From: Escherichia phage PNJ1809-36
Sequence record: MT944117.1
Direction: 5' to 3' (one strand)
DNA length: 64,000 nt
A program made the position numbers and the translations under genes. The notes under the pieces are model-generated. The model made no database searches. It saw only the letters and a list, made by a program, of their open reading frames with translations, and had not been told where the DNA came from. Positions 6,053 to 20,366 of this stretch are shown here, in pieces; positions within the stretch are counted from its first letter, which is position 1, and each line of letters opens with the position of its first letter.

Positions 6053-6411
6053 TTGACGTTCAAATTATGCGCAACGAAAGAATGGACTTCTTTGAAGCAG
6101 TAGAGAAACATCTGATCAGATGGGACTATGAATTTGTTCCTGCTGGATGTGGACCAGTAGAGCATTTAGCGGAAGACGATGATGTATACATGATCATTCG
6201 TCAAGTGTACCAGACAGACCAGTGTGAAGAAACTCCCGAACTGATTTTGTTTGAGTGTAAAGATCTTGCAAAATATTTTGACTATGGCGGAAAAGAGGGT
6301 CATAATCTCTCCAGATACAATAAACGTCTACTTATCTTAGACTACATGCGGAACAACAAACACAAACTCATCGACGCAGACGCAGTTTATGGCTACTGGT
6401 GGATGGATTAA
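6046..6411 (+). CDS. hypothetical protein (121 aa)
   Basis: SD CAGGAGG + ATG 6046. Confidence 0.6.
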   Translation: MLVDVQIMRNERMDFFEAVEKHLIRWDYEFVPAGCGPVEHLAEDDDVYMIIRQVYQTDQCEETPELILFECKDLAKYFDYGGKEGHNLSRYNKRLLILDYMRNNKHKLIDADAVYGYWWMD

Positions 6412-6424: not shown

Positions 6425-6613
6425 ATGGCACGTTTAGCAGATAACCCTGTATTCTACCCCGTTCTTGATCTTTATGATGAATTGACATATGTTGTGGAGC
6501 GGTATAATTACAATGAAGACCTCTTGGAGACAAACCTTAAAGTAGTTCTGATGAAAGCCTATCAGCAAGGGCAACGTGAAATTTTGGAGAGTATGAAAAA
6601 TGCGAATAACTGA
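6425..6613 (+). CDS. hypothetical protein (62 aa)
   Basis: ATG 6425 after SD AAAGGAG. Confidence 0.5.
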   Translation: MARLADNPVFYPVLDLYDELTYVVERYNYNEDLLETNLKVVLMKAYQQGQREILESMKNANN

Positions 6614-7142
6614 TGATTATGTATTCTTCTTTTCACATAAAGATGTTTTTAGTAATTGGTATATTGCACCCTTTACAGAAACCGAACCAAGTTACAATCA
6701 GACATTTAATTGTGTCGAACAATACATGATGTGGCGTAAAGCTTTGCTTTTTAATGATCACAACACTGCACAGGCTATTCTGACTCATAGCTTAAAACGA
6801 GAAGATGAGAAGATACAAGCTTATTACAAACGTATGGGTAGGGCAGTAGCAGGTTTCGATAACAAAATATGGGAAGAGAATCGTGAGCGTATTGTTATGC
6901 GAGGTTTATGCTTGAAGTATGTACAGAATCCAGACTTGTATGCCGATTTACGTCTATATCAATACAAAACATTTGTTGAAGCAAGTCCTTACGATAAGGT
7001 ATACGGAATTGGAATGGGGATGTATGAACCAGGGGTGCTAAACCCTGCCACCTGGAAAGGGCAGAATCTTTTAGGCAAATATCATAACAAACTGATCGAA
7101 ATACTTTTCCCAGACAAAATACCGCAAAGACGATATTTGTGA
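6600..7142 (+). CDS. NADAR-domain (YbiA/DUF1768-like) protein
   Basis: FSNWYIAPF, EQYMMWRKALLF, RMGRAV...W..NRE..VMRG...KY, YGIGMG...G.NLLGK blocks match the YbiA-family pattern. Confidence 0.75.
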   Translation: MRITDDYVFFFSHKDVFSNWYIAPFTETEPSYNQTFNCVEQYMMWRKALLFNDHNTAQAILTHSLKREDEKIQAYYKRMGRAVAGFDNKIWEENRERIVMRGLCLKYVQNPDLYADLRLYQYKTFVEASPYDKVYGIGMGMYEPGVLNPATWKGQNLLGKYHNKLIEILFPDKIPQRRYL

Positions 7143-7383
7143 TATTTTAACTTTTTTCATTTTTAGAACAAAGGTGTCACTTTGTAGCACAGAAATAAGG
7201 CTCCTACAGCACCGTAGAGAGCCTGTTATTTTGTCCTATACAAACCCTTATCTTTTTCAGTTTGCATCACTAGGATTCGATCTAAGTGGGTTCCTGAAGG
7301 TTTACCAATAAGATTAAAGGTTATCTCAAATTCCCACTACCTATTATCTCAAAAATCCCTCAAATTATTTAAACTTTTTAAGA

Positions 7384-7570
7384 ATTTACAAAAGTGAAAG
7401 TTGAAAACCAAAATTTAAAGTTTAGGAAAATTATCTTAAAATGTTAGATACAAAACAAAACTCAAAAGTCAAGGAAAATTTTAAAAATTTTGCGCGCCCA
7501 CAGTATTTAAAGTTTTTTTGCTTTTACAAAAATGAAAGTACAAAAGCAAAATTTAAAGTTTACAAAAATT
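7384..7570. repeat. two copies of a ~48-bp direct repeat (iteron-like)
   Basis: tttacaaaagtgaaagttgaaaaccaaaatttaaagtttaggaaaatt at ~7384 and a near-copy at ~7521. Confidence 0.7.
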
Positions 7571-7583
7571 TATGCAGATGGGA

Positions 7584-7698
7584 ATGAGAAGAGTTCTCAT
7601 ATGGAAATGCAAATGATAATGATTCGCATTTAGGTTTATAAATGAGATTGATTCTTATTTGATAAGGTAAATGATAATCATTCTCATTTAGAGAATGA
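7584..7698. promoter_or_regulatory. cluster of dyad-symmetric operator-like sites, Fur-box-like
   Basis: ATGAGAAgagTTCTCAT (7584-7600), AATGATAATGATTCGCATT (~7612), AATGATAATCATTCTCATT (~7669, 13-nt core identical to Fur box core AATGATAATCATT), CATTCTC-N5-GAGAATG (7679-7697). Confidence 0.4.
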
Positions 7699-7946
7699 CG
7701 CGCAGGGGCGGTGTTTGTCTCGCGCTCCCGTGTCCCCTCGCCATGTAATAAGAATAACAGATCCAGCCAGGAAAGCAAGCGATTATTTTATCTTTACATT
7801 TCTTTACAAATATATAGCGCCCAGCCTACCGGCGATCAACCTTCCAACCAGCGCCCTGGTATGTTAGCCCCGCCTTTACGCCGTGGGGTGGCGCTTCCTC
7901 TTCTGTATGTAAAACAGTATAAGCCCGATCCCTGGGCTTGTCAAGA

Positions 7947-8213
7947 TTATTTTTTGTTTTCTTGCCAGGAAAGGACACCTAACCAAAAATGCATATCGCC
8001 CCGCGCCCCTGGTGGGATCTTGCTTTCCCCGCCGCCACTGCAAGCCCATAAATAACCATCAGCAAACGGATCAAAATGGTCTATCTCTTCCACCTTATGA
8101 TCGCCCAGGTTGAGAACGGTTTCAACCTTTAAGCCCGTTGCGCTTGCTACCTGGTGCACCGTGCCGCCTTGCCAGCCCAATGAGTGCATAAGGTGTAATG
8201 TAGTATTTGTCAT
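7947..8213 (-). CDS. hypothetical protein (88 aa) inside a GC-rich island
   Basis: only clean ORF in 7700-8300; weak SD. Confidence 0.35.
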   Translation of the reverse strand: MTNTTLHLMHSLGWQGGTVHQVASATGLKVETVLNLGDHKVEEIDHFDPFADGYLWACSGGGESKIPPGARGDMHFWLGVLSWQENKK

Positions 8214-8322
8214 GGTGTCGCCCTTTCTTTGTTGTGCGCCCTGGTTGGCGCGGTAGAAAGATGATAGCCCTTTCTTTTATATATAGCAAGCAAAAAGAAA
8301 ATAAAAAAGATTGAAAAAGTGA

Positions 8323-8381
8323 TTGACGTTCGCCAGGTGGCGGCATAATATTTACCACGTAGGGCGGCAATGGTGCCGCTC
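8323..8381 (+). promoter_or_regulatory. early cassette promoter E1 with 5'-proximal stem-loop
   Basis: -35 TTGACG 8323-8328, -10 CATAAT/TAATAT ~8344-8351, stem-loop GGCGGCA-ATGG-TGCCGCT 8362-8379. Confidence 0.65.
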
Positions 8382-8400
8382 ATTATTTGGAGTTAAGATC

Positions 8401-8598
8401 ATGGCAACATTGCACATTGTGGCGAAAGCTGGACAAATCAACGTAATAGTAAACGGTTTTACTGAGTTCAGTCATCCCCAGGATGATCATGAAACGGTTT
8501 TATCTTTCATTGATTCACTGTTAGAAATGGGAGTAATTACAGAAGATCAGCATACTGCAAAATGCAAGCGCGTTAAGCAGATTGCAGGAATAGAATAA
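8401..8598 (+). CDS. hypothetical early protein (65 aa)
   Basis: ATG 8401 after SD GGAG; listed ORF 8323 start lies in promoter. Confidence 0.6.
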   Translation: MATLHIVAKAGQINVIVNGFTEFSHPQDDHETVLSFIDSLLEMGVITEDQHTAKCKRVKQIAGIE

Positions 8599-8603
8599 AA
8601 GTC

Positions 8604-8666
8604 TTGACAACAAGCCACAACCTGATAAGATGTATCACATAGGGCGGCGGAATGGTCCAGCCGCTC
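8604..8666 (+). promoter_or_regulatory. early cassette promoter E2 with 5'-proximal stem-loop
   Basis: -35 TTGACA 8604-8609, TGaTAAGAT ext -10 8623-8631, stem-loop GGCGGCGGA-ATGG-TCCAGCCGC 8642-8666. Confidence 0.65.
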
Positions 8667-8689
8667 ACAACAGAAGAGAGATTATAATC

Positions 8690-8962
8690 ATGGCATCATA
8701 TAGCGCAACAATGATCGTAGCTGGCACAACTGGTAAACCTATGAGCGGTGGCGGATCTTTCGCTAATATCAATATTGACGGGCGTTTATCCCTGGACGCA
8801 GCGATTGCCATTGCACGGGAAACATTTAAGAAAGAATGTAATTTCAACAAGCAAGATTATCTCGGTTTCGCTATTGAAAAAACCGCGCGCTTTGTTGATT
8901 ATAAAAGCCCGAAAATGGTTGATACTACACTAAAAGCGCAAGATGTAGCGTTTTTGCTTTAA
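8690..8962 (+). CDS. hypothetical early protein (90 aa)
   Basis: ATG 8690 after AGAAGAGAG SD-like leader. Confidence 0.6.
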   Translation: MASYSATMIVAGTTGKPMSGGGSFANINIDGRLSLDAAIAIARETFKKECNFNKQDYLGFAIEKTARFVDYKSPKMVDTTLKAQDVAFLL

Positions 8963-8965
8963 GGC

Positions 8966-9020
8966 TTGACATTAACGAATAATTTGTTAATATGTTACAT
9001 AAAGCGGGAATAGTTCCCGC
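8966..9020 (+). promoter_or_regulatory. early cassette promoter E3 with 5'-proximal stem-loop
   Basis: -35 TTGACA 8966-8971, TGtTAATAT 8985-8993, stem-loop GCGGGAA-TAG-TTCCCGC 9004-9020. Confidence 0.65.
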
Positions 9021-9038
9021 TATTTGTAAGGTGGTAGA

Positions 9039-9296
9039 ATGTTTTACATCAAATTAAAAGGTCACGTGATCGCGTTCAAAGATAACGCTTTTTACAGATT
9101 AGCAAAATATGCGTTAATACATCCCCACTATGTTTATATAAGGGGGCGTGATGAAATAAATATCTTTGATCAAACAACATGCGAGAACATCGAGATCCGC
9201 AAGGTTGGCGTACGTGATTATCGTACATCTTTCTACCCTTGCAAGGATTCAGCAAGTCTTTTTAAAGTATGCCAATTGTTGAAAAAAGGTGGTTAA
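9039..9296 (+). CDS. hypothetical early protein (85 aa)
   Basis: ORF; SD GGTGG. Confidence 0.6.
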   Translation: MFYIKLKGHVIAFKDNAFYRLAKYALIHPHYVYIRGRDEINIFDQTTCENIEIRKVGVRDYRTSFYPCKDSASLFKVCQLLKKGG

Positions 9297-9297
9297 T

Positions 9298-9855
9298 ATG
9301 GGCCGCGAATATGTGATCCAGTCTTGGGTAAAACATGAAGCAGATGATCCGCGCATCATTCCCGATCATCTTATCGATGAATCCACGGGATATAGCGGTG
9401 AGCAAATAGGTAACAGATTAGCACGTAGTAACGGCAACGTAAAAGCGCGTTATGTGCGCCCTGGCTGGCTGGCAAATGGTAACGCTGATTTATCCAGTGC
9501 GGAAGATGCGAGCGACGGCGCGAAAGATAATCCTTTGTACAAAGTTGATCCGGCTTTTCGTGTCCTGGATGAATACCCCAGCAAGATAGCGGCGCTTGAT
9601 GAAGCATTAGAAAGTAAGCGCATAACCTGGACCGCTTACAACATGGCAAAAAACGTACTTGATGGTAAATTGATTCAAGCCGAAAGAAAATTAGCCAAAA
9701 TTGCAGCCATAGCCCAGGAGGAAGACGAGGAGACAACGGAAGAGGAAGAGTACGAAGAGATCCCGCCGTTGTTGTGTATTGATGCTTTTCCTGATTATCA
9801 GCCGACAGAGGAAGAAAAAAGGATCGCACTAGAAAACTTTGAAAATAGTCTTTGA
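9298..9855 (+). CDS. hypothetical early protein with acidic C-terminus
   Basis: ATG 9298 after SD AAAGGTGG; listed 9289 start is GTG in same frame. Confidence 0.6.
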   Translation: MGREYVIQSWVKHEADDPRIIPDHLIDESTGYSGEQIGNRLARSNGNVKARYVRPGWLANGNADLSSAEDASDGAKDNPLYKVDPAFRVLDEYPSKIAALDEALESKRITWTAYNMAKNVLDGKLIQAERKLAKIAAIAQEEDEETTEEEEYEEIPPLLCIDAFPDYQPTEEEKRIALENFENSL

Positions 9856-9910
9856 CATATCGCCGCCACTGGTATAATATTTACCACGTAGGGCGGCAAT
9901 GGTGCCGCTC
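9852..9910 (+). promoter_or_regulatory. early cassette promoter E4 with 5'-proximal stem-loop
   Basis: -35 TTGACA 9852-9857, TGgTATAAT 9870-9878, stem-loop GGCGGCA-ATGG-TGCCGCT 9892-9909. Confidence 0.65.
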
Positions 9911-9937
9911 ATAGTGAAATTATGCAAGAGGTTTACA

Positions 9938-10033
9938 ATGATTAATAAAGAAAATAGCTTGACGGTTGGAACGATTAACGCTATCATTTTCGCCGTTCCA
10001 TTTTGGGTTGTAGTAGCGGCTATTATTTTCTAA
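9938..10033 (+). CDS. small hydrophobic peptide (31 aa)
   Basis: first ATG after E4 with SD AAGAGG; single hydrophobic helix. Confidence 0.4.
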   Translation: MINKENSLTVGTINAIIFAVPFWVVVAAIIF

Positions 10034-10041
10034 AAATATTC

Positions 10042-10102
10042 TTGACAACGTTTTTTAATCTGATAAGATGTATCACATAGGGCGGCGGAATACTTCCCCG
10101 CC
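10042..10102 (+). promoter_or_regulatory. early cassette promoter E5 with 5'-proximal stem-loop
   Basis: -35 TTGACA 10042-10047, TGaTAAGAT 10061-10069, stem-loop GGCGGCGGAA-TAC-TTCCCCGCC ~10080-10102. Confidence 0.65.
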
Positions 10103-10123
10103 AAAACAAAAAAGGGTAACACA

Positions 10124-10486
10124 ATGAGCAAGCAAATCAATACTATCATGTTTAATCTGGTATCTTTCCGCGATGATATGAAAAATTTACCACGTGAAAC
10201 GGTTGATATTCATGTTTCAGCTTATCGCGCCCTTATTGATATGTTACCGCTAAAACGTGATCAACATGCCGCTAATATGATGCTTAATGCTATGCTTAAA
10301 AAGATGATTCAAACGGATCTTACTCTGGCGTATGAGTATCAAGGGCGCTTATATGCTACTTACAACAAGGCGGTACCTGGTCTGGGAAGTACCGAAGAGT
10401 TGCACGGCTTAAACTTGGATCAGAACACTTGGGATAGTATGCGCCGCGTTATGGTATGGGCCGAAAGCGGTAAAATTTACGAATAA
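10124..10486 (+). CDS. hypothetical early protein (120 aa)
   Basis: ORF; SD AAAGGG. Confidence 0.65.
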   Translation: MSKQINTIMFNLVSFRDDMKNLPRETVDIHVSAYRALIDMLPLKRDQHAANMMLNAMLKKMIQTDLTLAYEYQGRLYATYNKAVPGLGSTEELHGLNLDQNTWDSMRRVMVWAESGKIYE

Positions 10487-10492
10487 AAACGG

Positions 10493-10552
10493 TTGACACT
10501 GTTTAAAATTCCGGTATAGTTTACCACATAGGGCGGGAAGTGGTTTCCCGCC
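10493..10552 (+). promoter_or_regulatory. early cassette promoter E6 with 5'-proximal stem-loop
   Basis: -35 TTGACA 10493-10498, -10 TATAGT 10515-10520, stem-loop GGCGGGAA-GTGGT-TTCCCGCC 10532-10552. Confidence 0.65.
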
Positions 10553-10574
10553 AACAATGAAAAAGGTTATCATC

Positions 10575-10940
10575 ATGGCTATTAATATTAATGTTTCCTC
10601 TTATGCTACCCTGGCTAACACGGCTAAAATTGAATTATCCAGCATTGAGGCGGTGCATATTAGCGCCCGTCGCTGGTTTCAACAGTCCTACGGTAACACA
10701 TATTTTTCTTTAATGGTTGACGTTGAGATCGGCGGTAAACTGATCGAGGTGGTTAACGTTCCGTTTCAATATGGCTATGGTGATCATTTTGATACCGTCG
10801 CCCTGGAAGAATTTAGCAAGGTTATCAACCTTGAGGGCAAGGAATTTTCACGCGGCGCGTATCTTTCCCGTTTTTGCCGTGACAATGGGATCACTGTATA
10901 CAGTCATGCAAGCGATGTTAAACGTAAAAAAGATCTATAA
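10575..10940 (+). CDS. hypothetical early protein (121 aa)
   Basis: ATG 10575 with SD AAAAGG; listed 10557 start abuts the hairpin with no SD. Confidence 0.6.
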   Translation: MAININVSSYATLANTAKIELSSIEAVHISARRWFQQSYGNTYFSLMVDVEIGGKLIEVVNVPFQYGYGDHFDTVALEEFSKVINLEGKEFSRGAYLSRFCRDNGITVYSHASDVKRKKDL

Positions 10941-10946
10941 AAAGCA

Positions 10947-11005
10947 TTGACAGCACGAATAAAAAGAGTAAACTGTATTACATAGAGAGCGGGAACACTT
11001 CCCGC
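10947..11005 (+). promoter_or_regulatory. early cassette promoter E7 with 5'-proximal stem-loop
   Basis: -35 TTGACA 10947-10952, -10 TAAACT 10969-10974, stem-loop GCGGGAA-CAC-TTCCCGC 10989-11005. Confidence 0.65.
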
Positions 11006-11029
11006 CTCACTGAAAAAGAGAGAAAAATC

Positions 11030-11269
11030 ATGGCTAAATCTAAAATGTACAACGGTCACAAAAACAAAACTCATTGGAATGTAAGCCTGTGGATTAATAA
11101 CGATGAGGGATTGTATCGGTTTGCATTGGGATTGATCAATGAGTGCGGTAATAAAGATCAGGCGGCTGATTTAATGTGCTACCGTTTGAAACAGGATGGA
11201 ATCACTACAACGCCAGACGGCTTTAAGTATAGTAAAACTGCAATCCGCGCCGCTATGGTTGGAATGTAA
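11030..11269 (+). CDS. hypothetical early protein (79 aa)
   Basis: ORF; SD AAGAGAG. Confidence 0.6.
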   Translation: MAKSKMYNGHKNKTHWNVSLWINNDEGLYRFALGLINECGNKDQAADLMCYRLKQDGITTTPDGFKYSKTAIRAAMVGM

Positions 11270-11282
11270 AGGAGACATAAAA

Positions 11283-11363
11283 ATGAAACATCGTTCGACC
11301 TATCTCACAAAACGTTTTAGCTTAGATCATAAATTGGGCTATTACGGAAGAAATAGAAAATAA
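11283..11363 (+). CDS. small basic peptide (26 aa)
   Basis: SD AAAGGAG + ATG 11283. Confidence 0.3.
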   Translation: MKHRSTYLTKRFSLDHKLGYYGRNRK

Positions 11364-11364
11364 T

Positions 11365-11424
11365 TTGACAACGTTTAAAATTAGTGTAAGATGTATCACA
11401 TAGGGCGGGAAGTGGTTTCCCGCC
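11365..11424 (+). promoter_or_regulatory. early cassette promoter E8 with 5'-proximal stem-loop
   Basis: -35 TTGACA 11365-11370, -10 TAAGAT 11387-11392, stem-loop GGCGGGAA-GTGGT-TTCCCGCC 11404-11424. Confidence 0.65.
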
Positions 11425-11446
11425 AACAACAGAGAGATTAAAGATT

Positions 11447-11674
11447 ATGGCTATCAATATTGTTCGTGTATCCGGCACCGTTGGCAGTTCCCAGGTTGTA
11501 GCAGTTGTAACAAACAAAAAGATTAATGATGTATGTGAGATCTTGAATAAGTGGGCTATTGCTAATTTTGGAGAATATGCGAGCGTCGAGTACATCGAAT
11601 CCTACCAGGTGCCAACCATCAGCCTAACCGATCTCAACGTTGATCGCCTGTTATGCCTGGATGAATTAATCTGA
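11447..11674 (+). CDS. hypothetical early protein (75 aa)
   Basis: ORF; leader AACAGAGAGATTAAAG. Confidence 0.6.
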   Translation: MAINIVRVSGTVGSSQVVAVVTNKKINDVCEILNKWAIANFGEYASVEYIESYQVPTISLTDLNVDRLLCLDELI

Positions 11675-11683
11675 AAAAGATTG

Positions 11684-11740
11684 TTGACACGGGAAAGAAA
11701 AAGAGTAAACTGTATTACGTAGGGCGGCAATGGTGCCGCT
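11684..11740 (+). promoter_or_regulatory. early cassette promoter E9 with 5'-proximal stem-loop
   Basis: -35 TTGACA 11684-11689, -10 TAAACT 11706-11711, stem-loop GGCGGCA-ATGG-TGCCGCT 11723-11740. Confidence 0.65.
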
Positions 11741-11764
11741 CACAACAGAAGAGAGATTATCACG

Positions 11765-11980
11765 ATGGCTAATATCCGCACACTGTTAAAAAATGCAAGT
11801 CAAGTTTTATTTTCAGATGACGAGTATTTCAATAAAGACATTACGGGCGTAAAAAGTCTTAAAGATGTAAAGGATGTAATAGGTATTCGCGGATCTTTAC
11901 GTAAGGGCGATTACTACGGTAACAAGGTGCAATATAAACTGTCAAAAGATTATGATTTTACTTTGACAATTATCAACTAA
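11765..11980 (+). CDS. hypothetical early protein (71 aa)
   Basis: ORF; leader CACAACAGAAGAGAGATTAT. Confidence 0.6.
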   Translation: MANIRTLLKNASQVLFSDDEYFNKDITGVKSLKDVKDVIGIRGSLRKGDYYGNKVQYKLSKDYDFTLTIIN

Positions 11981-11991
11981 GGGATCACAAA

Positions 11992-12150
11992 ATGAAAACT
12001 TGCCAATGTGGTAAAAAGTCTATCTCTGGTTTAAAACGTGGCGTTGCTCTTTGTCAATACCACTATAACGCTCAAACGTGGGGTAAGCAGTGGGCGGATC
12101 AGGTGGAAGAGGCAAAGAAAGAAAATATAAAAGTAGTTGCAAAGAAATAA
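11992..12150 (+). CDS. small Cys-containing protein (52 aa), possible zinc ribbon
   Basis: SD AAGGGA + ATG 11992; CQCG...LCQYHY. Confidence 0.4.
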   Translation: MKTCQCGKKSISGLKRGVALCQYHYNAQTWGKQWADQVEEAKKENIKVVAKK

Positions 12151-12198
12151 AAATAGAGTAAACTGTATTACATCAAGGCGGCGGAATGGTCCACCGCC
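12137..12198 (+). promoter_or_regulatory. early cassette promoter E10 with 5'-proximal stem-loop
   Basis: -35 TTGCAA 12137-12142, -10 TAAACT 12159-12164, two-helix stem-loop GGCGG-c-GGA-ATGG-TCC-a-CCGCC 12177-12198. Confidence 0.55.
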
Positions 12199-12222
12199 TA
12201 ACAAAGAGAAGAGGAAAATATC

Positions 12223-12390
12223 ATGATCACTTTCGCTACCCGTGAAGCCGCTCGCAACGTTGCACGTAAAGTTAACGCCGCCAACTTGGGCGCTACGCTT
12301 AAAGCCCCTGTAAAAGATGAATCAGGAAAATGGATCTTACCTGGTCTGCGTCATGCTGACAAGTTAGGTACTTTAAGCCTTAAAAAATAA
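12223..12390 (+). CDS. hypothetical early protein (55 aa)
   Basis: ATG 12223 after AGAGAAGAGG leader; N-terminus MITFA shared with next gene. Confidence 0.5.
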   Translation: MITFATREAARNVARKVNAANLGATLKAPVKDESGKWILPGLRHADKLGTLSLKK

Positions 12391-12393
12391 TCG

Positions 12394-12430
12394 TTGACTT
12401 TTCGTTATAGCGCCTTATAATGGGCGCTAT
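12394..12430 (+). promoter_or_regulatory. promoter E11 with perfect 8-bp inverted repeat flanking the -10
   Basis: -35 TTGACT 12394-12399, -10 TATAAT 12416-12421, IR ATAGCGCC (12406-12413) / GGCGCTAT (12423-12430). Confidence 0.6.
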
Positions 12431-12464
12431 AGAGAAGAGAAACCACTATTAACAAGGAAACATC

Positions 12465-12686
12465 ATGATTACTTTTGCTATTGTCGCCGTTGTTGCTGGT
12501 CAGGTTTACGTAAACGAGACATTTACTACAGAAGACAAGGCCGCAGGAGATATAACCGCCGTTTACAATGAGTGCAAGGCAGTAGAAAGGATGTTATCGC
12601 CTTGTATGCTAATGAGTGAACGTCAGGATGGGATAACAGTATTTACTAACATTGAAACAGGGTACCAAATGGTAGTAACAAAATAA
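12465..12686 (+). CDS. hypothetical early protein (73 aa)
   Basis: ORF; SD AAGGAAAC. Confidence 0.6.
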   Translation: MITFAIVAVVAGQVYVNETFTTEDKAAGDITAVYNECKAVERMLSPCMLMSERQDGITVFTNIETGYQMVVTK

Positions 12687-12689
12687 AGC

Positions 12690-12746
12690 TTGACACGTAT
12701 TTAATTTTCAGTAAACTGTTACACGTAGGGCGGGAATAGTTCCCGC
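12690..12746 (+). promoter_or_regulatory. early cassette promoter E12 with 5'-proximal stem-loop
   Basis: -35 TTGACA 12690-12695, -10 TAAACT 12712-12717, stem-loop GCGGGAA-TAG-TTCCCGC 12730-12746. Confidence 0.65.
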
Positions 12747-12764
12747 TAAAAAGAGAGAAAGACC

Positions 12765-13118
12765 ATGAAAGCACAAAATGCAATTAAAGAGTACATCCTT
12801 GCCGCTATCGATTTTAATGATTATGGTATTACAACCGAAAAAGAGAAGATCGCGGAATTGATGCGCCGTTTTAATTCCGAGTACTGGTACCCTGATAACC
12901 AATCACGTTTTAATTATAGTATTGTTAAAGCACTTGCATCATGGTTACAAGGTTTGCCATCAGATATTAATATCGCTTTCGAATATTGGGAAATTGATCG
13001 CTTGTTAACATCCTGGGGATACATTAAAGAGAATAGCAGCGATGATAAAATCCAACGAGAAAGGGAAAATTATTGGCTTTATATTGCAGGCGTGATCCTT
13101 GCTTGCTCTTATGAATGA
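12765..13118 (+). CDS. hypothetical early protein (117 aa)
   Basis: ORF; leader AAAGAGAGAAAGACC. Confidence 0.65.
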   Translation: MKAQNAIKEYILAAIDFNDYGITTEKEKIAELMRRFNSEYWYPDNQSRFNYSIVKALASWLQGLPSDINIAFEYWEIDRLLTSWGYIKENSSDDKIQRERENYWLYIAGVILACSYE

Positions 13119-13124
13119 TAAACC

Positions 13125-13178
13125 TTGACAATTTTACAAAACAGTTTAAATTAATAATATAGCGGCAATGGTGCCGCT
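13125..13178 (+). promoter_or_regulatory. early cassette promoter E13 with 5'-proximal stem-loop
   Basis: -35 TTGACA 13125-13130, -10 TAAATT ~13148-13153, stem-loop AGCGGCA-ATGG-TGCCGCT 13161-13178. Confidence 0.55.
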
Positions 13179-13197
13179 CATATAAAGAGGAAACAAA

Positions 13198-13344
13198 ATG
13201 AATACATCTAATCGCGCAGAAAAAATTCAATCTTCCAAGATCCGCAAGGCCTGGAATGAGGAAGTGATCCGCAAAGGCGACAAGCGCAATAAAACAAAGC
13301 GCGGGAAGAGTGACAAATATAATTGGATGGATTTAGAGAATTAA
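13198..13344 (+). CDS. small basic protein (48 aa), Lys/Arg-rich
   Basis: SD AAAGAGG + ATG 13198; KIRKAWNEEVIRKGDKRNKTKRGK. Confidence 0.45.
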   Translation: MNTSNRAEKIQSSKIRKAWNEEVIRKGDKRNKTKRGKSDKYNWMDLEN

Positions 13345-13352
13345 CATAACAA

Positions 13353-13378
13353 GGGCGCACCAAGCGCCCTTTCTTTTT
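13353..13378 (+). terminator. rho-independent terminator
   Basis: GGGCGC-ACCAA-GCGCCC followed by TTTCTTTTT; identical copy at 18808. Confidence 0.75.
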
Positions 13379-13399
13379 ACATGTAGAGGATAAACAAAA

Positions 13400-13585
13400 A
13401 TGACTTTAAACGAGCTTAAAACAGCCTATAACGCAACATTAAAAATAGCCGTGCGTTACCGTGACGAATACGGTTTTATTGCGCAGGGCGTGATCCTGGG
13501 CTTTTCTGACGATGGTTTGATCTATGTTGATGCACATCACAACAAGGTTAAACTTGAAAACGTCATTAGCATAAAATATCTTTAA
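13400..13585 (+). CDS. hypothetical early protein (61 aa)
   Basis: ORF; SD GAGGA. Confidence 0.55.
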   Translation: MTLNELKTAYNATLKIAVRYRDEYGFIAQGVILGFSDDGLIYVDAHHNKVKLENVISIKYL

Positions 13586-13591
13586 AAGTGG

Positions 13592-13650
13592 TTGACACCA
13601 TAACCGGACCTGTTAAACTGTATTACATCAGGCGGGGAATAGTTCCCCAC
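13592..13650 (+). promoter_or_regulatory. early cassette promoter E14 with 5'-proximal stem-loop
   Basis: -35 TTGACA 13592-13597, TGtTAAACT 13611-13619, stem-loop GGGGAA-TAG-TTCCCC 13634-13648. Confidence 0.65.
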
Positions 13651-13670
13651 CATACAAAAAGGTAAATATT

Positions 13671-13877
13671 ATGATCACCGCAAAACAAGAAAAAATCATT
13701 ATCGACGTTGCAGCCGTTGCCGCTATTGCTATTATCGGTACCTACTATGACACCGCGCGTCCTTCCTCCTTGCATGAGATCGCCGCCGTTGCATCAGTTG
13801 GCGTGCTGTTTTACGTTGGTAAACGTTATTTATCACCAATGATTAACAAGCTGACACCGTGGAAAAATAAAGGTTGA
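13671..13877 (+). CDS. small membrane protein (68 aa)
   Basis: ORF; two hydrophobic segments (VAAVAAIAIIGTYY, IAAVASVGVLFYVG). Confidence 0.6.
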   Translation: MITAKQEKIIIDVAAVAAIAIIGTYYDTARPSSLHEIAAVASVGVLFYVGKRYLSPMINKLTPWKNKG

Positions 13878-13929
13878 TCCTGTTTTATATTGTGTTATAG
13901 TTATCGTGTAGGGCGGCAATGGTGCCGCG
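13874..13929 (+). promoter_or_regulatory. early cassette promoter E15 with 5'-proximal stem-loop
   Basis: -35 TTGATC 13874-13879, TGtTATAGT 13893-13901, stem-loop GGCGGCA-ATGG-TGCCGC 13912-13929. Confidence 0.6.
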
Positions 13930-13948
13930 CCCCTTTGAGGATGCAATC

Positions 13949-14233
13949 ATGAGTAAAGCTAACACCGTGCTAATGTTTTCCCTGATTAATGATCCCGCTT
14001 ACTTGTCCAACATGACGCAGGAGGGTAACACATTAACGGCAACATTCACCAATAAGCTTGACCGAGTGATCATCATCTCACTGAAAACAGTTAGTAAAGG
14101 CTTTTACTCGTTAGCTTATCATTGGATCACTGATACCGATGAGACAAGCCAGGACTATAGCGCCCCTTTCCCTGAATCAATGGCACGGGAGATCATCGCC
14201 GCCGTTGTAAATGATGGTTTGTTTACTGCATAA
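13949..14233 (+). CDS. hypothetical early protein (94 aa)
   Basis: ATG 13949 after SD GAGGA; listed 13919 start lies within the hairpin. Confidence 0.6.
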   Translation: MSKANTVLMFSLINDPAYLSNMTQEGNTLTATFTNKLDRVIIISLKTVSKGFYSLAYHWITDTDETSQDYSAPFPESMAREIIAAVVNDGLFTA

Positions 14234-14251
14234 AATAATTTAGAAAAAGGC

Positions 14252-14308
14252 TTGCAATCATTTTGAGATAGTGTATATTTAATTCATAGGGCGGCGGGAA
14301 TAGTTCCC
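14252..14308 (+). promoter_or_regulatory. early cassette promoter E16 with short 5'-proximal stem-loop
   Basis: -35 TTGCAA 14252-14257, -10 TATATT 14274-14279, stem-loop GGGAA-TAG-TTCCC 14296-14308. Confidence 0.5.
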
Positions 14309-14331
14309 AAAGCAAACGAGAGGATTACACG

Positions 14332-14451
14332 ATGAGCAAGTACACAGTAGAATACACGGTAGAGAATCCGGTAGTATCCGAAGGTAAAAAGATGACATTT
14401 GCCATCAGTATAATCGCTTTCGTTGTCACTATCTTATCAATCATCTTATAA
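14332..14451 (+). CDS. small membrane peptide (39 aa)
   Basis: SD GAGAGGA + ATG 14332; C-terminal hydrophobic helix. Confidence 0.4.
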   Translation: MSKYTVEYTVENPVVSEGKKMTFAISIIAFVVTILSIIL

Positions 14452-14461
14452 GGTGCACACC

Positions 14462-14623
14462 ATGAAAATAACAGACATTATCAAAGAGATCGCCCTTGCC
14501 GCTGGCGTTGAAGTCGAGGAAGTGATCGCGCTCAATCTTACAGAAAACGATCTGCGCAACTATGAAGCGGAAAGCGTGAAAGCAAGCGGCGCGGTCCTGG
14601 TATATGATCCGGCTAACAAGTAA
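14462..14623 (+). CDS. hypothetical early protein (53 aa)
   Basis: ATG 14462 after SD AAGGTG; listed ORF 14423 start is upstream alternative. Confidence 0.5.
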   Translation: MKITDIIKEIALAAGVEVEEVIALNLTENDLRNYEAESVKASGAVLVYDPANK

Positions 14624-14632
14624 GGGGATAAC

Positions 14633-14743
14633 ATGAATCCGAAAGATATGCAAGCATGGAAAGGGTACGACGATCTAAGCGCCTTGCGCAATAAGTCAAG
14701 CCGTAACCTTAGACGGTTGGAAGCAAAGAAAAAGAAAAAATAG
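14633..14743 (+). CDS. small basic peptide (36 aa)
   Basis: SD AAGGGGA + ATG 14633; Lys-rich C-terminus. Confidence 0.35.
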   Translation: MNPKDMQAWKGYDDLSALRNKSSRNLRRLEAKKKKK

Positions 14744-14744
14744 T

Positions 14745-14801
14745 TTGACAAGTCCGCGTAGTCTGATAATATGTATCTTGTAGCGCGGCAATGGTGCCGC
14801 T
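14745..14801 (+). promoter_or_regulatory. early cassette promoter E17 with 5'-proximal stem-loop
   Basis: -35 TTGACA 14745-14750, TGaTAATAT 14764-14772, stem-loop GCGGCA-ATGG-TGCCGC 14785-14800. Confidence 0.65.
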
Positions 14802-14821
14802 CACAAGAAGAGAGAAAAATC

Positions 14822-15106
14822 ATGAAAATTACAAAAAGCCTAACTAATTATGCAGCACGTCGCGGATTATGCTTAACCGTTGAAAACTTAGGGAAAGAAG
14901 ACTTTTTGTGTTTTTGGGAGCTTGAGAATGATTGCGAGTGGATGTTTTCTTATTCTATCTGCGAAGATCAAAACGGTTGTTTGTTAACCTGGCGCGGTAA
15001 TATCTATTTACCGGAAGAAATTAAAGAAGAGTTACCAGGTACGATCATGACAGAGAGACAGCTTAAGGAAGTGATCAATTTTGTAGGGCAAAACATTAAA
15101 AAATAA
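14822..15106 (+). CDS. hypothetical early protein (94 aa)
   Basis: ATG 14822 after leader CACAAGAAGAGAGAAAAATC. Confidence 0.6.
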   Translation: MKITKSLTNYAARRGLCLTVENLGKEDFLCFWELENDCEWMFSYSICEDQNGCLLTWRGNIYLPEEIKEELPGTIMTERQLKEVINFVGQNIKK

Positions 15107-15107
15107 T

Positions 15108-15169
15108 TTGACAGTAGGCAAACAACGTAGTAAAGTTTATTACATAGAGCGGCGGAATGGTCCACCGCT
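15108..15169 (+). promoter_or_regulatory. early cassette promoter E18 with 5'-proximal stem-loop
   Basis: -35 TTGACA 15108-15113, -10 TAAAGT 15131-15136, two-helix stem-loop GCGG-c-GGA-ATGG-TCC-a-CCGC 15148-15169. Confidence 0.6.
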
Positions 15170-15191
15170 CACAACAGAAGAGAAACAAATC

Positions 15192-15362
15192 ATGATCCCG
15201 ACTATGTTTTATGTATCGCGCAAAGGTCACAATATTTTTTGGTCTGAAGATTTAAATGAAGCTATGACGTTTGCCCGTGATCGTGTTGCTATCGGTGGCG
15301 TTAACATCACCGTAACCGATGAAAATGGCATTGAATACTATAACGGCGACGATGAAGAATAA
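15192..15362 (+). CDS. hypothetical early protein (56 aa)
   Basis: ATG 15192 after conserved leader CACAACAGAAGAGAAACAAATC. Confidence 0.5.
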   Translation: MIPTMFYVSRKGHNIFWSEDLNEAMTFARDRVAIGGVNITVTDENGIEYYNGDDEE

Positions 15363-15369
15363 TTAATGA

Positions 15370-15390
15370 GGCGGGGGAGTATTCCCCGCC
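15370..15390 (+). ncRNA. promoter-less intercistronic GC stem-loop (same family as cassette hairpins)
   Basis: GGCGGGGGA-GTA-TTCCCCGCC, no T-run, no upstream -35/-10. Confidence 0.45.
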
Positions 15391-15409
15391 GTCAATAAAG
15401 AGGTAAATC

Positions 15410-18833: not shown

Positions 18834-20366
18834 GCCCGAATAATGTTGATAGATTCCGCCTATGAAAAACCGACACAGAACAAAACTGAATAGATCGCGG
18901 TATCGAGCTAATCAACCATTAAACGAATAACCATACCTCCCAGGGTAACAGGTTGTTAGAGAGCCATTTAGAGCGGTTAAAATCGATCAACAACCAACAA
19001 CAAACCATCAAAAACACCCTTTTACCTCCTTTCTAGTGCAATGATAACCATTATCATCTATCCATGTTTATCTATGCAATATAAGTGCATAACTATAATG
19101 TTGATAATAGTTCGCAACAACTAACTAACCAACAACCTAAAACAATAAGCAAACTAATCATAATCAAAGGAATAATAGCAAGATGATTGATAACGACAAA
19201 CAATCAAACCATGATGAATACTAAGCAAGATAACGATAACACGACAAAACAACCAACTAACGAACAATAACAAACGAAACCATTAAAATAACAACTATTA
19301 GCAAAATAGTGCCTGAATGAAATCATTACAAAACGAATCATTCACAGGATCATCATTAGCACGCTATGCCGGACACATAGCGAGCTAATAATAAGCCAAC
19401 TACACCCCAACAATCATAACCATCGGTGATGGTTATTTCTTGTTACTGCGTAGCTTGCAATAATTGCAAGCGTAATGACGCTTACACTTATTGCGCTGGC
19501 TTATTATTAGCATTATATGTAATTACCAAGATCATAACATTAGCGCAATAACAATAATCATTGTGGTAATTACAAGATGAAATAATCGCTATCGCTCAAA
19601 GATTATTAGCAAGATGAATAATTGCACGTAGCAACATGAGCGAATAGCGACAGGTTGCATAGTGTGCACATAGATGTACACGCAGTGTATAAACATACAG
19701 GAAAATAAAGGCTAATCTTTTGGGGGCGAATACTATCGCGTAGCGATATGTTGAGCATCTTCTCTTAAACGTAAATAAAATCAGAAAATTCTTGATTTAT
19801 TTTAATTTTTATGTTAATAAACGTTTAAATAATAATCATTCTCATATGAATAATAGTCTGCTTGTCATGAGCGGGATTAGTTGACAATGTTCCGTCATAT
19901 GATGAGGTTGCCAAACCATTGATAAATAAGTGTTTGTGTGATTTATAATCAAGCGGCCCACCTTGTCGCTATGTTGGCATGAGCCTTGCATAAGTCATTG
20001 AATACGAATGATAATTATTCTCATTCGCATGATATTTGGGAATTGTCGCTGCGTGGACCTGACGGCCCGAAAATTCGCGTTAAGCACTTCTTACGTATGT
20101 GCCATGATTTTTGCCATATGATATTGATTCTACTAGATATTCTTGCCATGATTGCCATGAAACAGGGTGTCCCGAAATAATCTCTCCCTGTAGATATTTT
20201 GGGTTACTTTTTATACAAGAGTGGGGTGTCAAAAATAATTGGTATATATGGGATAATTGATAGGAATCCCCTATGATAATTCGATTGTAATTCCCTAAGA
20301 TTGATCGTATGATGTTGGTGATTGATGATTGCCATGAAAGATGGCTAACGATGAGAGGAGATTATC
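18834..20366. other. gene-free 1.5-kb region, strand-skewed A+C-rich (CAA/AAC-rich, G/T-poor on plus strand)
   Basis: no credible ORF; long tracts such as aaccaacaacaaaccatcaaaaacaccc and acaaaacaaccaactaacgaacaataacaaacg. Confidence 0.7.
20100..20337. repeat. five copies of TTGCCATGA-type motif including a perfect tandem pair
   Basis: TGCCATGA at ~20100, TTGCCATATGA ~20111, TTGCCATGATTGCCATGA 20143-20160, TTGCCATGA 20329-20337. Confidence 0.6.

What the first reader, a model, noticed from the sequence alone, without database searches (positions are those of the whole stretch)
7580..7700. Fur-box-like dyad operators in the large intergenic regions
AAATGATAATCATTCTCATTT (~7669) contains the 13-nt core AATGATAATCATT of the E. 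coli Fur box consensus GATAATGATAATCATTATC. Related half-site arrangements (ATGAGAA/TTCTCAT) recur at 7584-7600, ~7612, 7679-7697 and again at ~19831-19845 and ~20007-20030. The sites are either host Fur targets, linking phage early transcription to iron status, or operators for a phage regulator with similar specificity.
Basis: partly seen in the sequence, partly recalled or inferred. Interest (0 to 1): 0.6.

Follow-up and report, generated by a model that had tools for sequence, protein, structure and literature searches.

The report
Host Fur-box arrays at phage genome hubs
A virulent E. coli phage carries seven near-perfect binding sites for the host iron regulator Fur, placed in its terminal repeat and in a conserved non-coding hub rather than over promoters, and the same arrays occur at phage T5's injection-stop region and beside terminase genes of unrelated phages, which suggests that phages use Fur as a host factor at their DNA ends.

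Summary
The window is a phAPEC8-like virulent myovirus (Phapecoctavirus). It holds seven 21-bp dyads (AAATGAnAATnATTCTCATTT): four at 7582-7689 spaced exactly 29 bp, and three at 19039, 19827 and 20006. The other ~88 kb of the genome holds none.

A matrix built only from phage sites picks out ryhB, fhuA, cirA, entC, fepA-fes, fepD-entS, fepB and feoA in 183 kb of E. coli K-12. A matrix built only from those E. coli sites ranks the same seven phage sites first. These phages encode no Fur homologue, so host Fur is the inferred ligand.

The placement does not look like a promoter operator. Cluster 1 lies downstream of two conserved leftward promoters, between a conserved GC-rich element and AT-rich iteron-like repeats. 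Two cluster-2 boxes lie inside the 329-bp direct terminal repeat.

The same boxes make up T5's 'direct repeat C / palindromes E-I' at the 7.9% injection-stop point. In uncultivated viral contigs they form arrays beside terminase genes and are enriched at contig ends.

Best reading: Fur docking arrays acting as cis elements at or near genome ends, with iron as a possible input. Binding and function are untested. I found no prior report.

The parts
7582..7602 (.). Fur-type box 1 (weakest, GAATGAGAAGAGTTCTCATAT)
   Evidence: 19.0 bits with the phage matrix and 16.7 with the E. coli-only matrix. It is in 29-bp register with boxes 2-4.
7611..7631 (.). Fur-type box 2 (AAATGATAATGATTCGCATTT)
   Evidence: 32.0 and 25.9 bits.
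7640..7660 (.). Fur-type box 3 (AAATGAGATTGATTCTTATTT)
Evidence: 28.0 and 23.2 bits.
7669..7689 (.). Fur-type box 4 (AAATGATAATCATTCTCATTT), adjoining the GC-rich element. A box is present at this position in all 14 relatives examined.
   Evidence: 35.0 and 27.9 bits. 16 of 19 matches to GATAATGATAATCATTATC. Present at the same place in relatives infecting Escherichia, Klebsiella, Salmonella, Cronobacter, Pectobacterium and Erwinia.
19039..19059 (.). Fur-type box 5 (CAATGATAACCATTATCATCT) in the terminal non-coding region
   Evidence: 20.4 and 22.2 bits. A 31.5-bit box sits at the homologous place in Justusliebigvirus alia.
19827..19847 (.). Fur-type box 6 (AAATAATAATCATTCTCATAT), inside the terminal repeat
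   Evidence: 26.8 and 24.0 bits. The core 19829-19846 is identical (18 of 18) to the Fur box of the E. coli ryhB promoter.
20006..20026 (.). Fur-type box 7 (GAATGATAATTATTCTCATTC), inside the terminal repeat
   Evidence: 30.4 and 23.8 bits. Conserved in alia despite about 70% identity of the surrounding DNA.
19754..20082 (.). Equivalent of the 329-bp direct terminal repeat (the physical genome ends)
   Evidence: In the Schickermooser record, bases 1-329 equal 150866-151194 at 100% identity, and they map here. Independent records end at both boundaries: window ~19753 and ~20082. The boundary motif CGCGTTAAGCAC is conserved in alia.
7916..7944 (-). Promoter-like site P1 (TTGACA-17-TATACT), reading leftward toward the boxes
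   Evidence: 11 of 12 matches. A 9-11 of 12 promoter sits at the same distance (213-231 bp before the proximal box) in all 11 relatives, with variable spacer sequence.
7751..7809 (-). Second leftward promoter-like region (P2). TTGTAA-16-AATAAT lies at 7809->7782. A weaker TTGCTT-16-TATTCT lies at 7778->7751, at the place where relatives have TTGATC-16-TATTAT or TTGCAA-17-TATATT.
   Evidence: In 8 relatives a 9 of 12 promoter ends 59-62 bp before the proximal box.
7690..7915 (-). Conserved GC-rich element of unknown nature, possibly a leftward non-coding transcript
   Evidence: 70-90% nucleotide identity across two subfamilies while the flanks do not align. Covariation is weak, and the G.U pairs favour the - strand. 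There is no Rfam match and no significant folding z-score.
7361..7570 (.). AT-rich iteron-like direct repeats (72 nt at 7361-7432 and 7499-7570), to the left of the box array
   Evidence: Relatives have 2-3 repeats of about 70-80 nt at the same place.

Best explanation
The dyads are binding sites for the host ferric uptake regulator Fur. Selection keeps them as arrays in two non-coding, cis-acting hubs of a virulent phAPEC8-like phage.

- Hub 1 holds four boxes phased at 29 bp. They sit between a conserved GC-rich element with two leftward promoters and AT-rich iteron-like repeats. This is 12.4 kb (8.2%) from the right genome end.
- Hub 2 is the terminal non-coding region. It holds three boxes, two of them inside the 329-bp direct terminal repeat, so each virion DNA end carries two boxes.

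Proposed mechanism: Fe2+-Fur dimers of the host occupy the arrays and build a stable nucleoprotein block on phage DNA. That block acts as an accessory host factor for events at or near the genome ends. These could be recognition or processing of the terminus during packaging, or holding or arresting the DNA during entry. In hub 1 the block could also stop leftward transcription from P1/P2 from entering the iteron region. Iron status would set the occupancy.

Shown here: the sites, their Fur specificity, their conservation and phasing, their placement, and the absence of a phage Fur. Inferred: Fur binding itself and every downstream function. The confidence of 0.5 is for the whole statement; that the sites are host-Fur sites I put at about 0.8.
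For: (1) Specificity. A matrix built from 34 phage sites alone was scanned over 183 kb of E. coli K-12. It ranked ryhB first and fhuA second, followed by cirA, entC, fepA-fes, fepD-entS, a second ryhB site, fepB and feoA. That is 9 of the top 14 hits, inside about 1% of the sequence, and all seven Fur-regulated intergenic regions sampled were hit. A matrix built only from those E. coli sites ranks the same seven window sites as the top seven. Six of them score 22-28 bits, against at most 16 anywhere else in the 151-kb genome.

(2) Box 6 is identical (18 of 18) to the ryhB box core.

(3) Protein site rather than RNA hairpin. Half-site positions 7 and 15 vary independently (complementary in 14 of 34 sites, with no T-A pair).

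(4) Selection. A box occupies the proximal position in every relative examined, across six host genera. The 29-bp spacing is kept while the 8-bp spacers differ in sequence. The cluster-2 boxes are kept in alia at about 70% surrounding identity.

(5) No phage-encoded reader. tblastn with E. coli Fur finds no homologue in these phage groups. The adjacent 88-aa ORF is absent from T5-like phages and from most Vequintavirinae.

(6) Placement. Two boxes lie in the terminal repeat. No box overlaps a conserved promoter.

(7) The same arrays occur in unrelated phages at end-related places. In T5 they occupy 9472-9631, which is annotated as 'direct repeat C / palindromes E-I'. That is 30-190 bp from the 7.9% nick, at the calculated first-step-transfer shear point, and about 500 bp inside the boundary of the long terminal repeat. 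In IMG/VR, arrays lie within about 2 kb of the large terminase gene in 9 of 13 testable contigs unrelated to T5 or rV5, and next to a T5 A1-like 'DNA transfer protein' in 2 more. Perfect boxes are three times enriched within 300 bp of contig ends (20 observed against 6.5 expected).
Against: - No binding or expression data exist for these sites.
- Hub 1, which holds the boxes of the finding, is 12 kb from the terminus. The 'ends' reading fits it only by analogy with T5's 7.9% position.
- Contig-end enrichment could reflect assembly breaks at repeats.
- The IMG/VR contigs were selected by the motif itself, and their hosts are unknown.
- The terminal repeat is inferred from one record plus coinciding record ends, not from read data.
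- From my own knowledge, unverified here: E. coli fur mutants remain T5-sensitive, so Fur cannot be essential for T5.
- The genome-wide screen of Mutalik et al. mentions Fur only through fhuA repression (PMC7553319).
- The phage-derived matrix and the E. coli-derived matrix are not fully independent, because the E. coli sites were located with the phage matrix.
Confidence: 0.5

Rival explanations
1. Classical Fur operators. Fe2+-Fur occludes sigma-70 promoters that overlap the boxes, so particular phage transcripts are made only when iron is scarce.
For: The sequences equal Fur operators. Box 6 equals the ryhB operator, which overlaps that promoter's -10. Weak promoter-like matches overlap some boxes: - strand 7642->7613, - strand 20042->20014, and in Vequintavirinae TTGAAT-18-CAGAAT over the proximal box.
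Against: None of those promoter-like matches is conserved. The -35 TTG of the proximal-box candidate is absent in Stephanstirmvirinae. The count of promoter-like sites in hub 2 equals the shuffled expectation (10 against 8.4). The conserved promoters P1 and P2 lie 59-231 bp upstream of the boxes. There is no ORF downstream of the arrays. Two boxes are inside a terminal repeat. T5's array also lies beyond the last pre-early gene and its terminators, away from the annotated pre-early promoters.
Confidence: 0.2
2. Fur sponge. Many replicating phage genomes, each with 7-9 strong boxes, titrate host Fur (a natural Fur titration assay) and so derepress the host iron regulon for the phage's benefit.
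For: The sites are many and score very high. Six of the seven score at or above genuine E. coli operators with an E. coli-only matrix. The principle of titration by multicopy Fur boxes is established (FURTA, from my own knowledge).
Against: A sponge does not need fixed positions, 29-bp phasing, or placement in terminal repeats and beside terminase genes. T5 degrades host DNA within minutes of infection (abstract of 10.64898/2026.04.02.716235), so derepressing host genes would be pointless for that phage.
Confidence: 0.1
3. Operators for a phage-encoded DNA-binding protein that happens to share, or mimics, Fur specificity.
For: Arrays of phased dyads are typical of phage repressor or replication-initiator sites. 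An 88-aa ORF with a helix-turn-helix-like N-terminus lies beside hub 1 on the - strand.
Against: There is no Fur homologue in these phages. The 88-aa ORF occurs in only 151 records and is absent from T5-like phages and most Vequintavirinae that carry the boxes. It has no Pfam match and its PHROG has unknown function. The same motif occurs in phage families that share few genes, and in contigs with at least six different terminase families. A common host protein explains that more simply.
Confidence: 0.08
4. Not protein-Fur sites at all. Either they are small-terminase recognition repeats, or they are RNA hairpins or terminators formed by AT-rich palindromes.
For: They lie next to termini and terminase genes. 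The scan flags GTCATTCTC-TAAAT-GAGAATGAT as terminator-like on the - strand.
Against: Terminase recognition sites are lineage-specific. Here one motif, equal to the host Fur box, is shared by unrelated terminase families. The half-sites show no compensatory change. The stems are AU-rich and lack a proper U-tract. Hub 1 is not at a terminus.
Confidence: 0.07

Closest known systems
E. coli Fur boxes (operators of ryhB, fhuA, cirA, ent/fep, iucA; consensus GATAATGATAATCATTATC, read as GATAAT hexamers or as 7-1-7)
   Same: The sequence specificity cannot be told apart in reciprocal matrix tests. Box 6 equals the ryhB box core. Contiguous hexamer runs are present, as in extended Fur sites (last line of output).
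   Different: The boxes belong to a strictly virulent phage. They form arrays of up to four at fixed 29-bp phasing. They do not overlap a conserved promoter. They sit in a terminal repeat and in an ORF-free hub.
Phage T5 injection-stop (iss) region: 'direct repeat C', palindromes E-I, DnaA boxes (Wang et al. annotation of AY587007; Davison, bioRxiv 10.1101/866236)
   Same: The same 21-bp motif, in arrays (T5 9472, 9507, 9530, 9576, 9611; up to 35 bits). blastn links window 7605-7660 to this region in T5-like phages. Both are ORF-free and repeat-rich. Both lie about 8% of the genome length from an end (7.9% against 8.2%).
   Different: The T5 array lies inside a 10.1-kb terminal repeat, beside DnaA boxes and a perfect LexA box. 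The window has no DnaA or LexA boxes in its hubs. In T5 the repeats were described as repeats and palindromes with no assigned ligand. Davison's text never mentions Fur or LexA.
IHF site I1 in cosB of phage lambda (a host DNA-binding protein as accessory factor for terminase; from my own knowledge)
   Same: A site for an abundant host DNA-binding protein placed next to the packaging site or genome end.
   Different: A different protein. Fur binding depends on metal. The role is proven for IHF and only inferred here.
Transcription-activated phage origins (T7 primary origin: tandem promoters followed by an AT-rich region; T4 oriF/oriG: promoter plus unwinding element; from my own knowledge)
   Same: Hub 1 has two tandem promoters reading into an AT-rich, repeat-containing, ORF-free stretch.
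   Different: Host-type sigma-70 promoters. A Fur-box array is interposed. There is no evidence here that replication starts in this region.

Membership tests
Fur box (binding site of Fur) | Match to the 19-bp consensus, or at least three contiguous GATAAT-type hexamers | tested here: met
   The 7667-7685 site matches 16 of 19 positions; the others match 13-15 of 19. GATAAG-GTAAAT-GATAAT-CATTCT-CATTTA-GAGAAT runs across box 4.
Fur box (binding site of Fur) | Same specificity as experimentally known Fur operators | tested here: met
   The phage-only matrix finds ryhB, fhuA, cirA, entC, fepA-fes, fepD-entS, fepB and feoA among the top 14 hits of 183 kb. The E. coli-only matrix ranks the seven phage sites first.
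Fur box (binding site of Fur) | Fur binds it in vitro or in vivo in a metal-dependent way | not testable with these tools
   Needs EMSA, footprinting or ChIP.
Fur-repressed promoter (operator of the Fur regulon) | The box overlaps the -35/-10 or the start site of the regulated promoter | tested here: not met
   No conserved promoter overlaps any box. The conserved P1 and P2 end 213-231 and 59-62 bp upstream of the proximal box.
Fur-repressed promoter (operator of the Fur regulon) | Iron- or Fur-dependent expression of a downstream gene | not testable with these tools
   No ORF follows the arrays. Expression data would be needed.
Phage repressor or initiator operators | A cognate phage-encoded DNA-binding protein that co-occurs with the sites | tested here: not met
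   No Fur homologue. The neighbouring 88-aa ORF is absent from most box-bearing phages. Not every phage protein was tested.
Terminase recognition repeats (pac/cos) | Location at or next to the physical terminus or the packaging genes | tested here: inconclusive
   Met for cluster 2 (inside the terminal repeat) and for IMG/VR arrays beside the large terminase gene. Not met for cluster 1, which is 12.4 kb from the end.
Terminase recognition repeats (pac/cos) | A motif specific to the lineage of the terminase | tested here: not met
   The same motif accompanies at least six different terminase PHROG families and appears in T5-like and rV5-like phages.
Intrinsic terminator or structured RNA hairpin | Pairing kept by compensatory changes; a G+C-rich stem followed by a U-tract | tested here: not met
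   Positions 7/15 are complementary in only 14 of 34 sites, with independent G/T choice in each half-site. The stems have only two G-C pairs.

The most novel reading that the evidence does not exclude
Fur is a widespread host accessory factor that phages recruit at their genome ends. On this reading the Fur-box array is part of T5's long-sought injection stop signal. phAPEC8-like phages would then have a comparable ~8% terminal segment of small early genes (window ~8300-18800), bounded by the cluster-1 array. Arrays beside cos/pac sites of many unrelated phages would couple DNA entry, end-holding or packaging to Fe2+-Fur occupancy.
Probability: 0.2. Interest if true: 0.9.

Novelty: new variant of a known kind. 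Interest (0 to 1): 0.72.

Why it matters
Fur boxes are known as promoter operators of bacterial iron genes and of a few prophage cargo genes. Here they appear as conserved, phased arrays in strictly virulent phages. They sit in a terminal repeat, at the exact place of T5's injection stop, and next to terminase genes in unrelated viral contigs.

If Fur binds these sites, three things follow:
- It would be a new kind of host factor for phage DNA-end biology, beside IHF at lambda cos.
- The 60-year-old question of what stops T5 first-step transfer would gain a concrete, testable candidate.
- Phage infection would be linked to the iron state of the cell, which matters in the gut and for phage therapy, where iron is limiting.

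The practical tests are simple: fur hosts, chelators and box mutants.

Tried and rejected
- Rfam, at gathering and at E-value thresholds, gave nothing relevant for the hub. There are no tRNA or tmRNA genes.
- Folding energy of the GC-rich element is not significant on either strand (z = 0.26 and 0.47). RNAalifold gives only a weak covariation term. I therefore do not claim a structured RNA.
- Promoter scans found no conserved promoter over any box.
- A phage Fur does not exist in these groups.
- DnaA and LexA boxes, as in T5, are absent from both window hubs.
- Literature searches for Fur boxes in phAPEC8, rV5 or T5 phages, or in phage genomes in general, found only a fur box upstream of sitABCD in lambda-type prophages (PMC6969025) and nothing on these arrays.
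- Searches for published termini of phAPEC8-like phages and for non-coding RNAs of Vequintavirinae were unproductive.
- I tried to name the IMG/VR phages through their terminases. The relatives are only distant (at most 45% identity, apart from two unnamed 'Caudovirales sp.' records at 77%), so their hosts remain unknown.

Full report
**Identity of the window.** Megablast places the window in the genus Phapecoctavirus. These are phAPEC8-like, strictly virulent E. coli myoviruses of about 150 kb, in the subfamily Stephanstirmvirinae. The window is 98-100% identical to vB_EcoM_ASO2A. The finding lies in an 800-bp unannotated gap (7142-7947), between a NADAR-domain gene (6600-7142, +) and an 88-aa ORF on the - strand (7947-8213). 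The second set of sites lies in a 1.5-kb ORF-free gap (about 18830-20367).

- The quoted 21-mer is at 7669-7689.
- The core pattern with up to 3 mismatches gives 9 matches against 0.10 expected.
- I built a palindromised 21-nt matrix from 34 distinct phage sites. With it the window has seven sites of 19-35 bits: 7582, 7611, 7640, 7669, 19039, 19827 and 20006. Nothing else scores above 9 bits.
- Markov shuffles give 0.23 sites of at least 15 bits per 64 kb.
- The remaining ~88 kb of a 96%-identical genome (record MG065650) has nothing above 13.2 bits.
- The whole genome therefore has seven sites, all within 2.3 kb of non-coding DNA.
- The four cluster-1 boxes are spaced exactly 29 bp.

**Are they Fur boxes?** I scanned the phage-only matrix over 183 kb of E. 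coli K-12, taken as four chunks around ent/fep, fhuA, cirA and feoA-ryhB.
- The best hit is the ryhB promoter (25.3 bits). The second is the fhuA upstream region.
- cirA, entC, fepA-fes, fepD-entS, a second ryhB site, fepB and feoA follow.
- That makes 9 of the top 14 hits, all inside the seven Fur-regulated intergenic regions. Together those regions are about 1% of the sequence.

The reverse test agrees. A matrix made only of those nine E. coli 21-mers ranks the same seven window sites as the top seven. Six of them score 22-28 bits, against at most 16 bits anywhere else in the 151-kb genome, and they score at or above the E. coli sites' own self-scores. The two tests are not fully independent, because the E. 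coli sites were located with the phage matrix. The nucleotides in each matrix do come from one source only.

Two further points support this. Window 19829-19846 is identical (18 of 18) to the core of the ryhB box. The half-sites also vary independently: positions 7 and 15 are complementary in 14 of 34 sites, with G or T chosen separately in each half. That is the behaviour of a protein site built of GATAAT/GAGAAT hexamers, not of an RNA hairpin.

**Who reads them?** tblastn with E. coli Fur against 50,697 phage records finds 34 hits. None is in Stephanstirmvirinae, Vequintavirinae or T5-like phages. The neighbouring 88-aa ORF is the only - strand gene nearby, and its N-terminus looks like a helix-turn-helix. 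It has no Pfam match, and its PHROG has unknown function. Its homologues occur in only 151 records. They are absent from T5-like phages and from most Vequintavirinae that carry the boxes. Host Fur is therefore the economical ligand. I could not exclude every phage protein.

**Conservation.**
- A sensitive blastn of the gap shows that window 7669-7950 is conserved at 70-90% in Justusliebigvirus and in Vequintavirinae, in phages of Escherichia, Klebsiella, Salmonella, Cronobacter, Pectobacterium and Erwinia. This stretch starts exactly at the best box. The flanks do not align.
- In all 14 relatives I fetched, a high-scoring box sits at that boundary. One to three further boxes usually precede it at -29 and -58 bp.
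- The 8-bp spacers between boxes differ in sequence, but their length is kept.
- In Justusliebigvirus alia, the region homologous to cluster 2 is only about 70% identical. It still keeps boxes at the three corresponding places.

**Geometry of hub 1.** On the - strand, two sigma-70-like promoters are conserved in position in all 11 aligned relatives, with variable spacer sequences.
- P1 is TTGACA-17-TATACT at 7944->7916 in the window. Its -10 ends 213-231 bp before the proximal box.
- P2 ends 59-62 bp before the proximal box in eight relatives. It is weaker in the window, which has an alternative TTGTAA-16-AATAAT at 7809->7782.

Leftward transcripts would therefore cross the GC-rich element, then the box array, then the 72-nt AT-rich direct repeats (7361-7432 and 7499-7570). 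They would end near the convergent terminator at about 7197-7230. No ORF lies on that path.

The GC-rich element shows a little covariation. 96.8% of cells are paired, against 32-51% in slid controls. Three pairs have double changes. The G.U pairs would be mismatches on the + strand. However, the folding z-scores are not significant, and Rfam has nothing. I call it a conserved element of unknown nature, possibly a leftward non-coding transcript.

No conserved promoter overlaps any box. The candidate TTGAAT-18-CAGAAT seen in Vequintavirinae loses its -35 in Stephanstirmvirinae.

**Geometry of hub 2.** In the record of phage Schickermooser, bases 1-329 are identical to bases 150866-151194. This 329-bp direct terminal repeat maps to window 19754-20082. 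Independent records end at window ~20082 (Mt1B1_P17, WPEC6) and at ~19753 (118_SA_NWU). The boundary motif CGCGTTAAGCAC is conserved in alia. Boxes 6 and 7 lie inside this repeat, so each end of the virion DNA would carry two boxes within about 60-275 bp of the tip. Cluster 1 lies 12.4-12.5 kb, or 8.2% of the genome, from the right end. The DNA in between consists of small + strand genes, many with their own promoter and terminator in the ASO2A annotation.

**Beyond this phage family.** blastn linked window 7605-7660 to T5-like phages. In HASG4 and HildyBeyeler the matching region is the ORF-free end of the long terminal repeat. It holds the same dyads, including the perfect palindrome AAATGAGAATCATTCTCATTT, together with DnaA boxes and a perfect LexA box.

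In T5 itself (AY587007) the boxes are at 9472 (27.3 bits), 9507, 9530, 9576 (35.0) and 9611 (27.8). These coincide with the annotated 'direct repeat C copies 1-4' and 'palindromes E-I'. They lie 30-190 bp left of 'major nick 1, 7.9%'. They also lie at the first-step-transfer shear point that Davison calculated (9618), and about 500 bp inside the repeat boundary at 10139. Davison's comparative paper on this region discusses DnaA boxes and never mentions Fur or LexA.

An exact-pattern scan of IMG/VR returned its maximum of 120 contigs.
- 66 have at least two sites of 18 bits or more. Only 9 resemble T5-like or rV5-like references.
- 16 contigs unrelated to those references have arrays of at least three boxes within 600 bp. 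13 of these have a large ORF nearby that could be tested.
- In 9 of those 13, that ORF is the large terminase, and the array lies within about 2 kb of it. In 8 of the 9 the array lies in the non-coding DNA upstream of the packaging genes. In 2 more contigs the neighbour is the T5 A1-like 'DNA transfer protein'.
- At least six terminase PHROG families are involved.
- Perfect boxes are three times enriched within 300 bp of contig ends: 20 observed against 6.5 expected under uniform placement, reached in none of 20,000 simulations.

Caveats apply. The contigs were chosen by the motif itself. Their hosts are unknown, since the closest cultured terminases are at most 45% identical, apart from two unnamed records at 77%. 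Repeats can also break assemblies.

**Interpretation.** I consider it well supported (about 0.8) that these are sites for host Fur. What Fur would do there is inference.

The classical operator reading fits the sequence but not the placement. The sponge reading does not explain fixed positions and phasing, and it makes little sense for T5, which destroys host DNA early (abstract). The one feature common to the terminal repeat here, the end of T5's long repeat, the terminase-proximal arrays and the contig ends is nearness to genome termini or packaging sites. This suggests Fur as an accessory host factor, as IHF is at lambda cos (my own knowledge).

Hub 1 does not fit that directly. Its layout of tandem promoters, then the box array, then AT-rich iterons suggests a Fur roadblock on leftward transcription, possibly at an origin-like element. 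Its 8.2% distance from the end parallels T5's 7.9% stop.

In the screen of Mutalik et al., overexpressing feoB or ydiE protected cells against T5 and the T5-like phage CEV2. The authors ascribed this to Fur-mediated repression of fhuA (PMC7553319). That result is compatible with a direct effect on the phage's own boxes, but it is confounded. From my own knowledge, fur mutants remain T5-sensitive, so any role of Fur is accessory rather than essential.

**Novelty.** Within the searchable library I found no report of Fur boxes in phAPEC8-like, rV5-like or T5-like phages. The only 'fur box in a phage genome' concerns sitABCD cargo in lambda-type prophages. The motif is known. The carriers, the array form and the end-related placement are new, so I rate this a new variant of a known kind. 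All functional statements await the experiments listed under next steps.

Noticed in passing
window 7690-7915 (- strand): A GC-rich element of about 230 bp, conserved at 70-90% nucleotide identity across Stephanstirmvirinae and Vequintavirinae while the flanks do not align. Two positionally conserved leftward promoter-like sites (P1, P2) are present. Covariation is weak, there is no Rfam family, and folding z-scores are not significant. Its nature is unknown (non-coding RNA or DNA cis element).
   Followed up: partly
window 7793-7807 (- strand) and 18267-18281 (+ strand): The identical 15-mer GTAAAGAAATGTAAA matches the CpxR consensus GTAAA-N5-GTAAA (recalled from memory). The first copy lies in nearly invariant columns of the GC-rich element in 10 of 11 relatives. 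The second lies 19 nt upstream of a strong TTGACA-17-TATATT promoter.
   Followed up: partly
window 7361-7432 and 7499-7570; L010-L013, L143, L144 around 900-1150 / 100-330: AT-rich direct repeats of 72 nt lie left of the box array. Vequintavirinae have 2-3 iteron-like repeats of about 70-80 nt at the same place, containing CTCGATCG (GATC). The layout looks like an origin.
   Followed up: partly
window ~18830-19750: An ORF-free tract of about 900 nt that is G-poor and CA-rich on the + strand (runs such as AACAACCAACAACAAACC), just left of the terminal repeat. Function unknown.
   Followed up: no
window 20098-20340: The motif TTGCCATGA (or TGCCATAT) is repeated 4-5 times immediately right of the terminal-repeat boundary at 20082. 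It is a candidate site for terminase or another protein.
   Followed up: no
L148 (T5 AY587007) 9330-9349 and 6135-6154; L004 1256-1275; L005 1811-1830: T5 'palindrome D' and inverted repeat D contain a perfect LexA SOS box (TACTGTATAAATATACAGTA), next to the DnaA boxes and the Fur-type boxes. The T5 injection-stop region is thus a cluster of sites for three host DNA-binding proteins.
   Followed up: partly
L004 1078 and 1124; L005 1950 and 1996; L014 1148: The 12-bp palindrome TTAGCNNGCTAA occurs beside the Fur-type boxes in T5-like phages and also in the rV5-like phage nomo. No ligand is known to me.
   Followed up: no
L142 (Pectobacterium phage P7_Pc) ~615-800: An insertion of about 200 nt interrupts the conserved GC-rich element after CTACCGGCGAT. 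It carries a second, diverged copy of the 3' part (CCAAGTTTACCGCCGTTGGTAGGC).
   Followed up: no
L014 (rV5-like phage nomo) 1200-1290 and 1339-1440: Vequintavirus has two tandem copies of the unit 'Fur-type box + GGTGnTTGTCTC hairpin' instead of the full GC-rich element.
   Followed up: no
IMG/VR loci L022-L141: Arrays of 3-9 Fur-type boxes occur in many uncultivated viral contigs unrelated to T5 or rV5 (G+C 0.37-0.53). They often lie upstream of the terminase operon or within 300 bp of a contig end (20 observed against 6.5 expected).
   Followed up: partly
window 7947-8213 (- strand): An 88-aa ORF (phrog_19316, unknown function) is the only - strand gene in a long run of + strand genes. Its N-terminus (GGTVHQVASATGLKVETV) looks like a helix-turn-helix. 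Its stop abuts promoter P1.
   Followed up: partly
records MG0656xx ('Campylobacter phage B15, C3, A145 ...'): Several records labelled as Campylobacter jejuni phages are 90-96% identical to E. coli Phapecoctavirus or Justusliebigvirus genomes. They are probably mislabelled hosts or contaminants.
   Followed up: no
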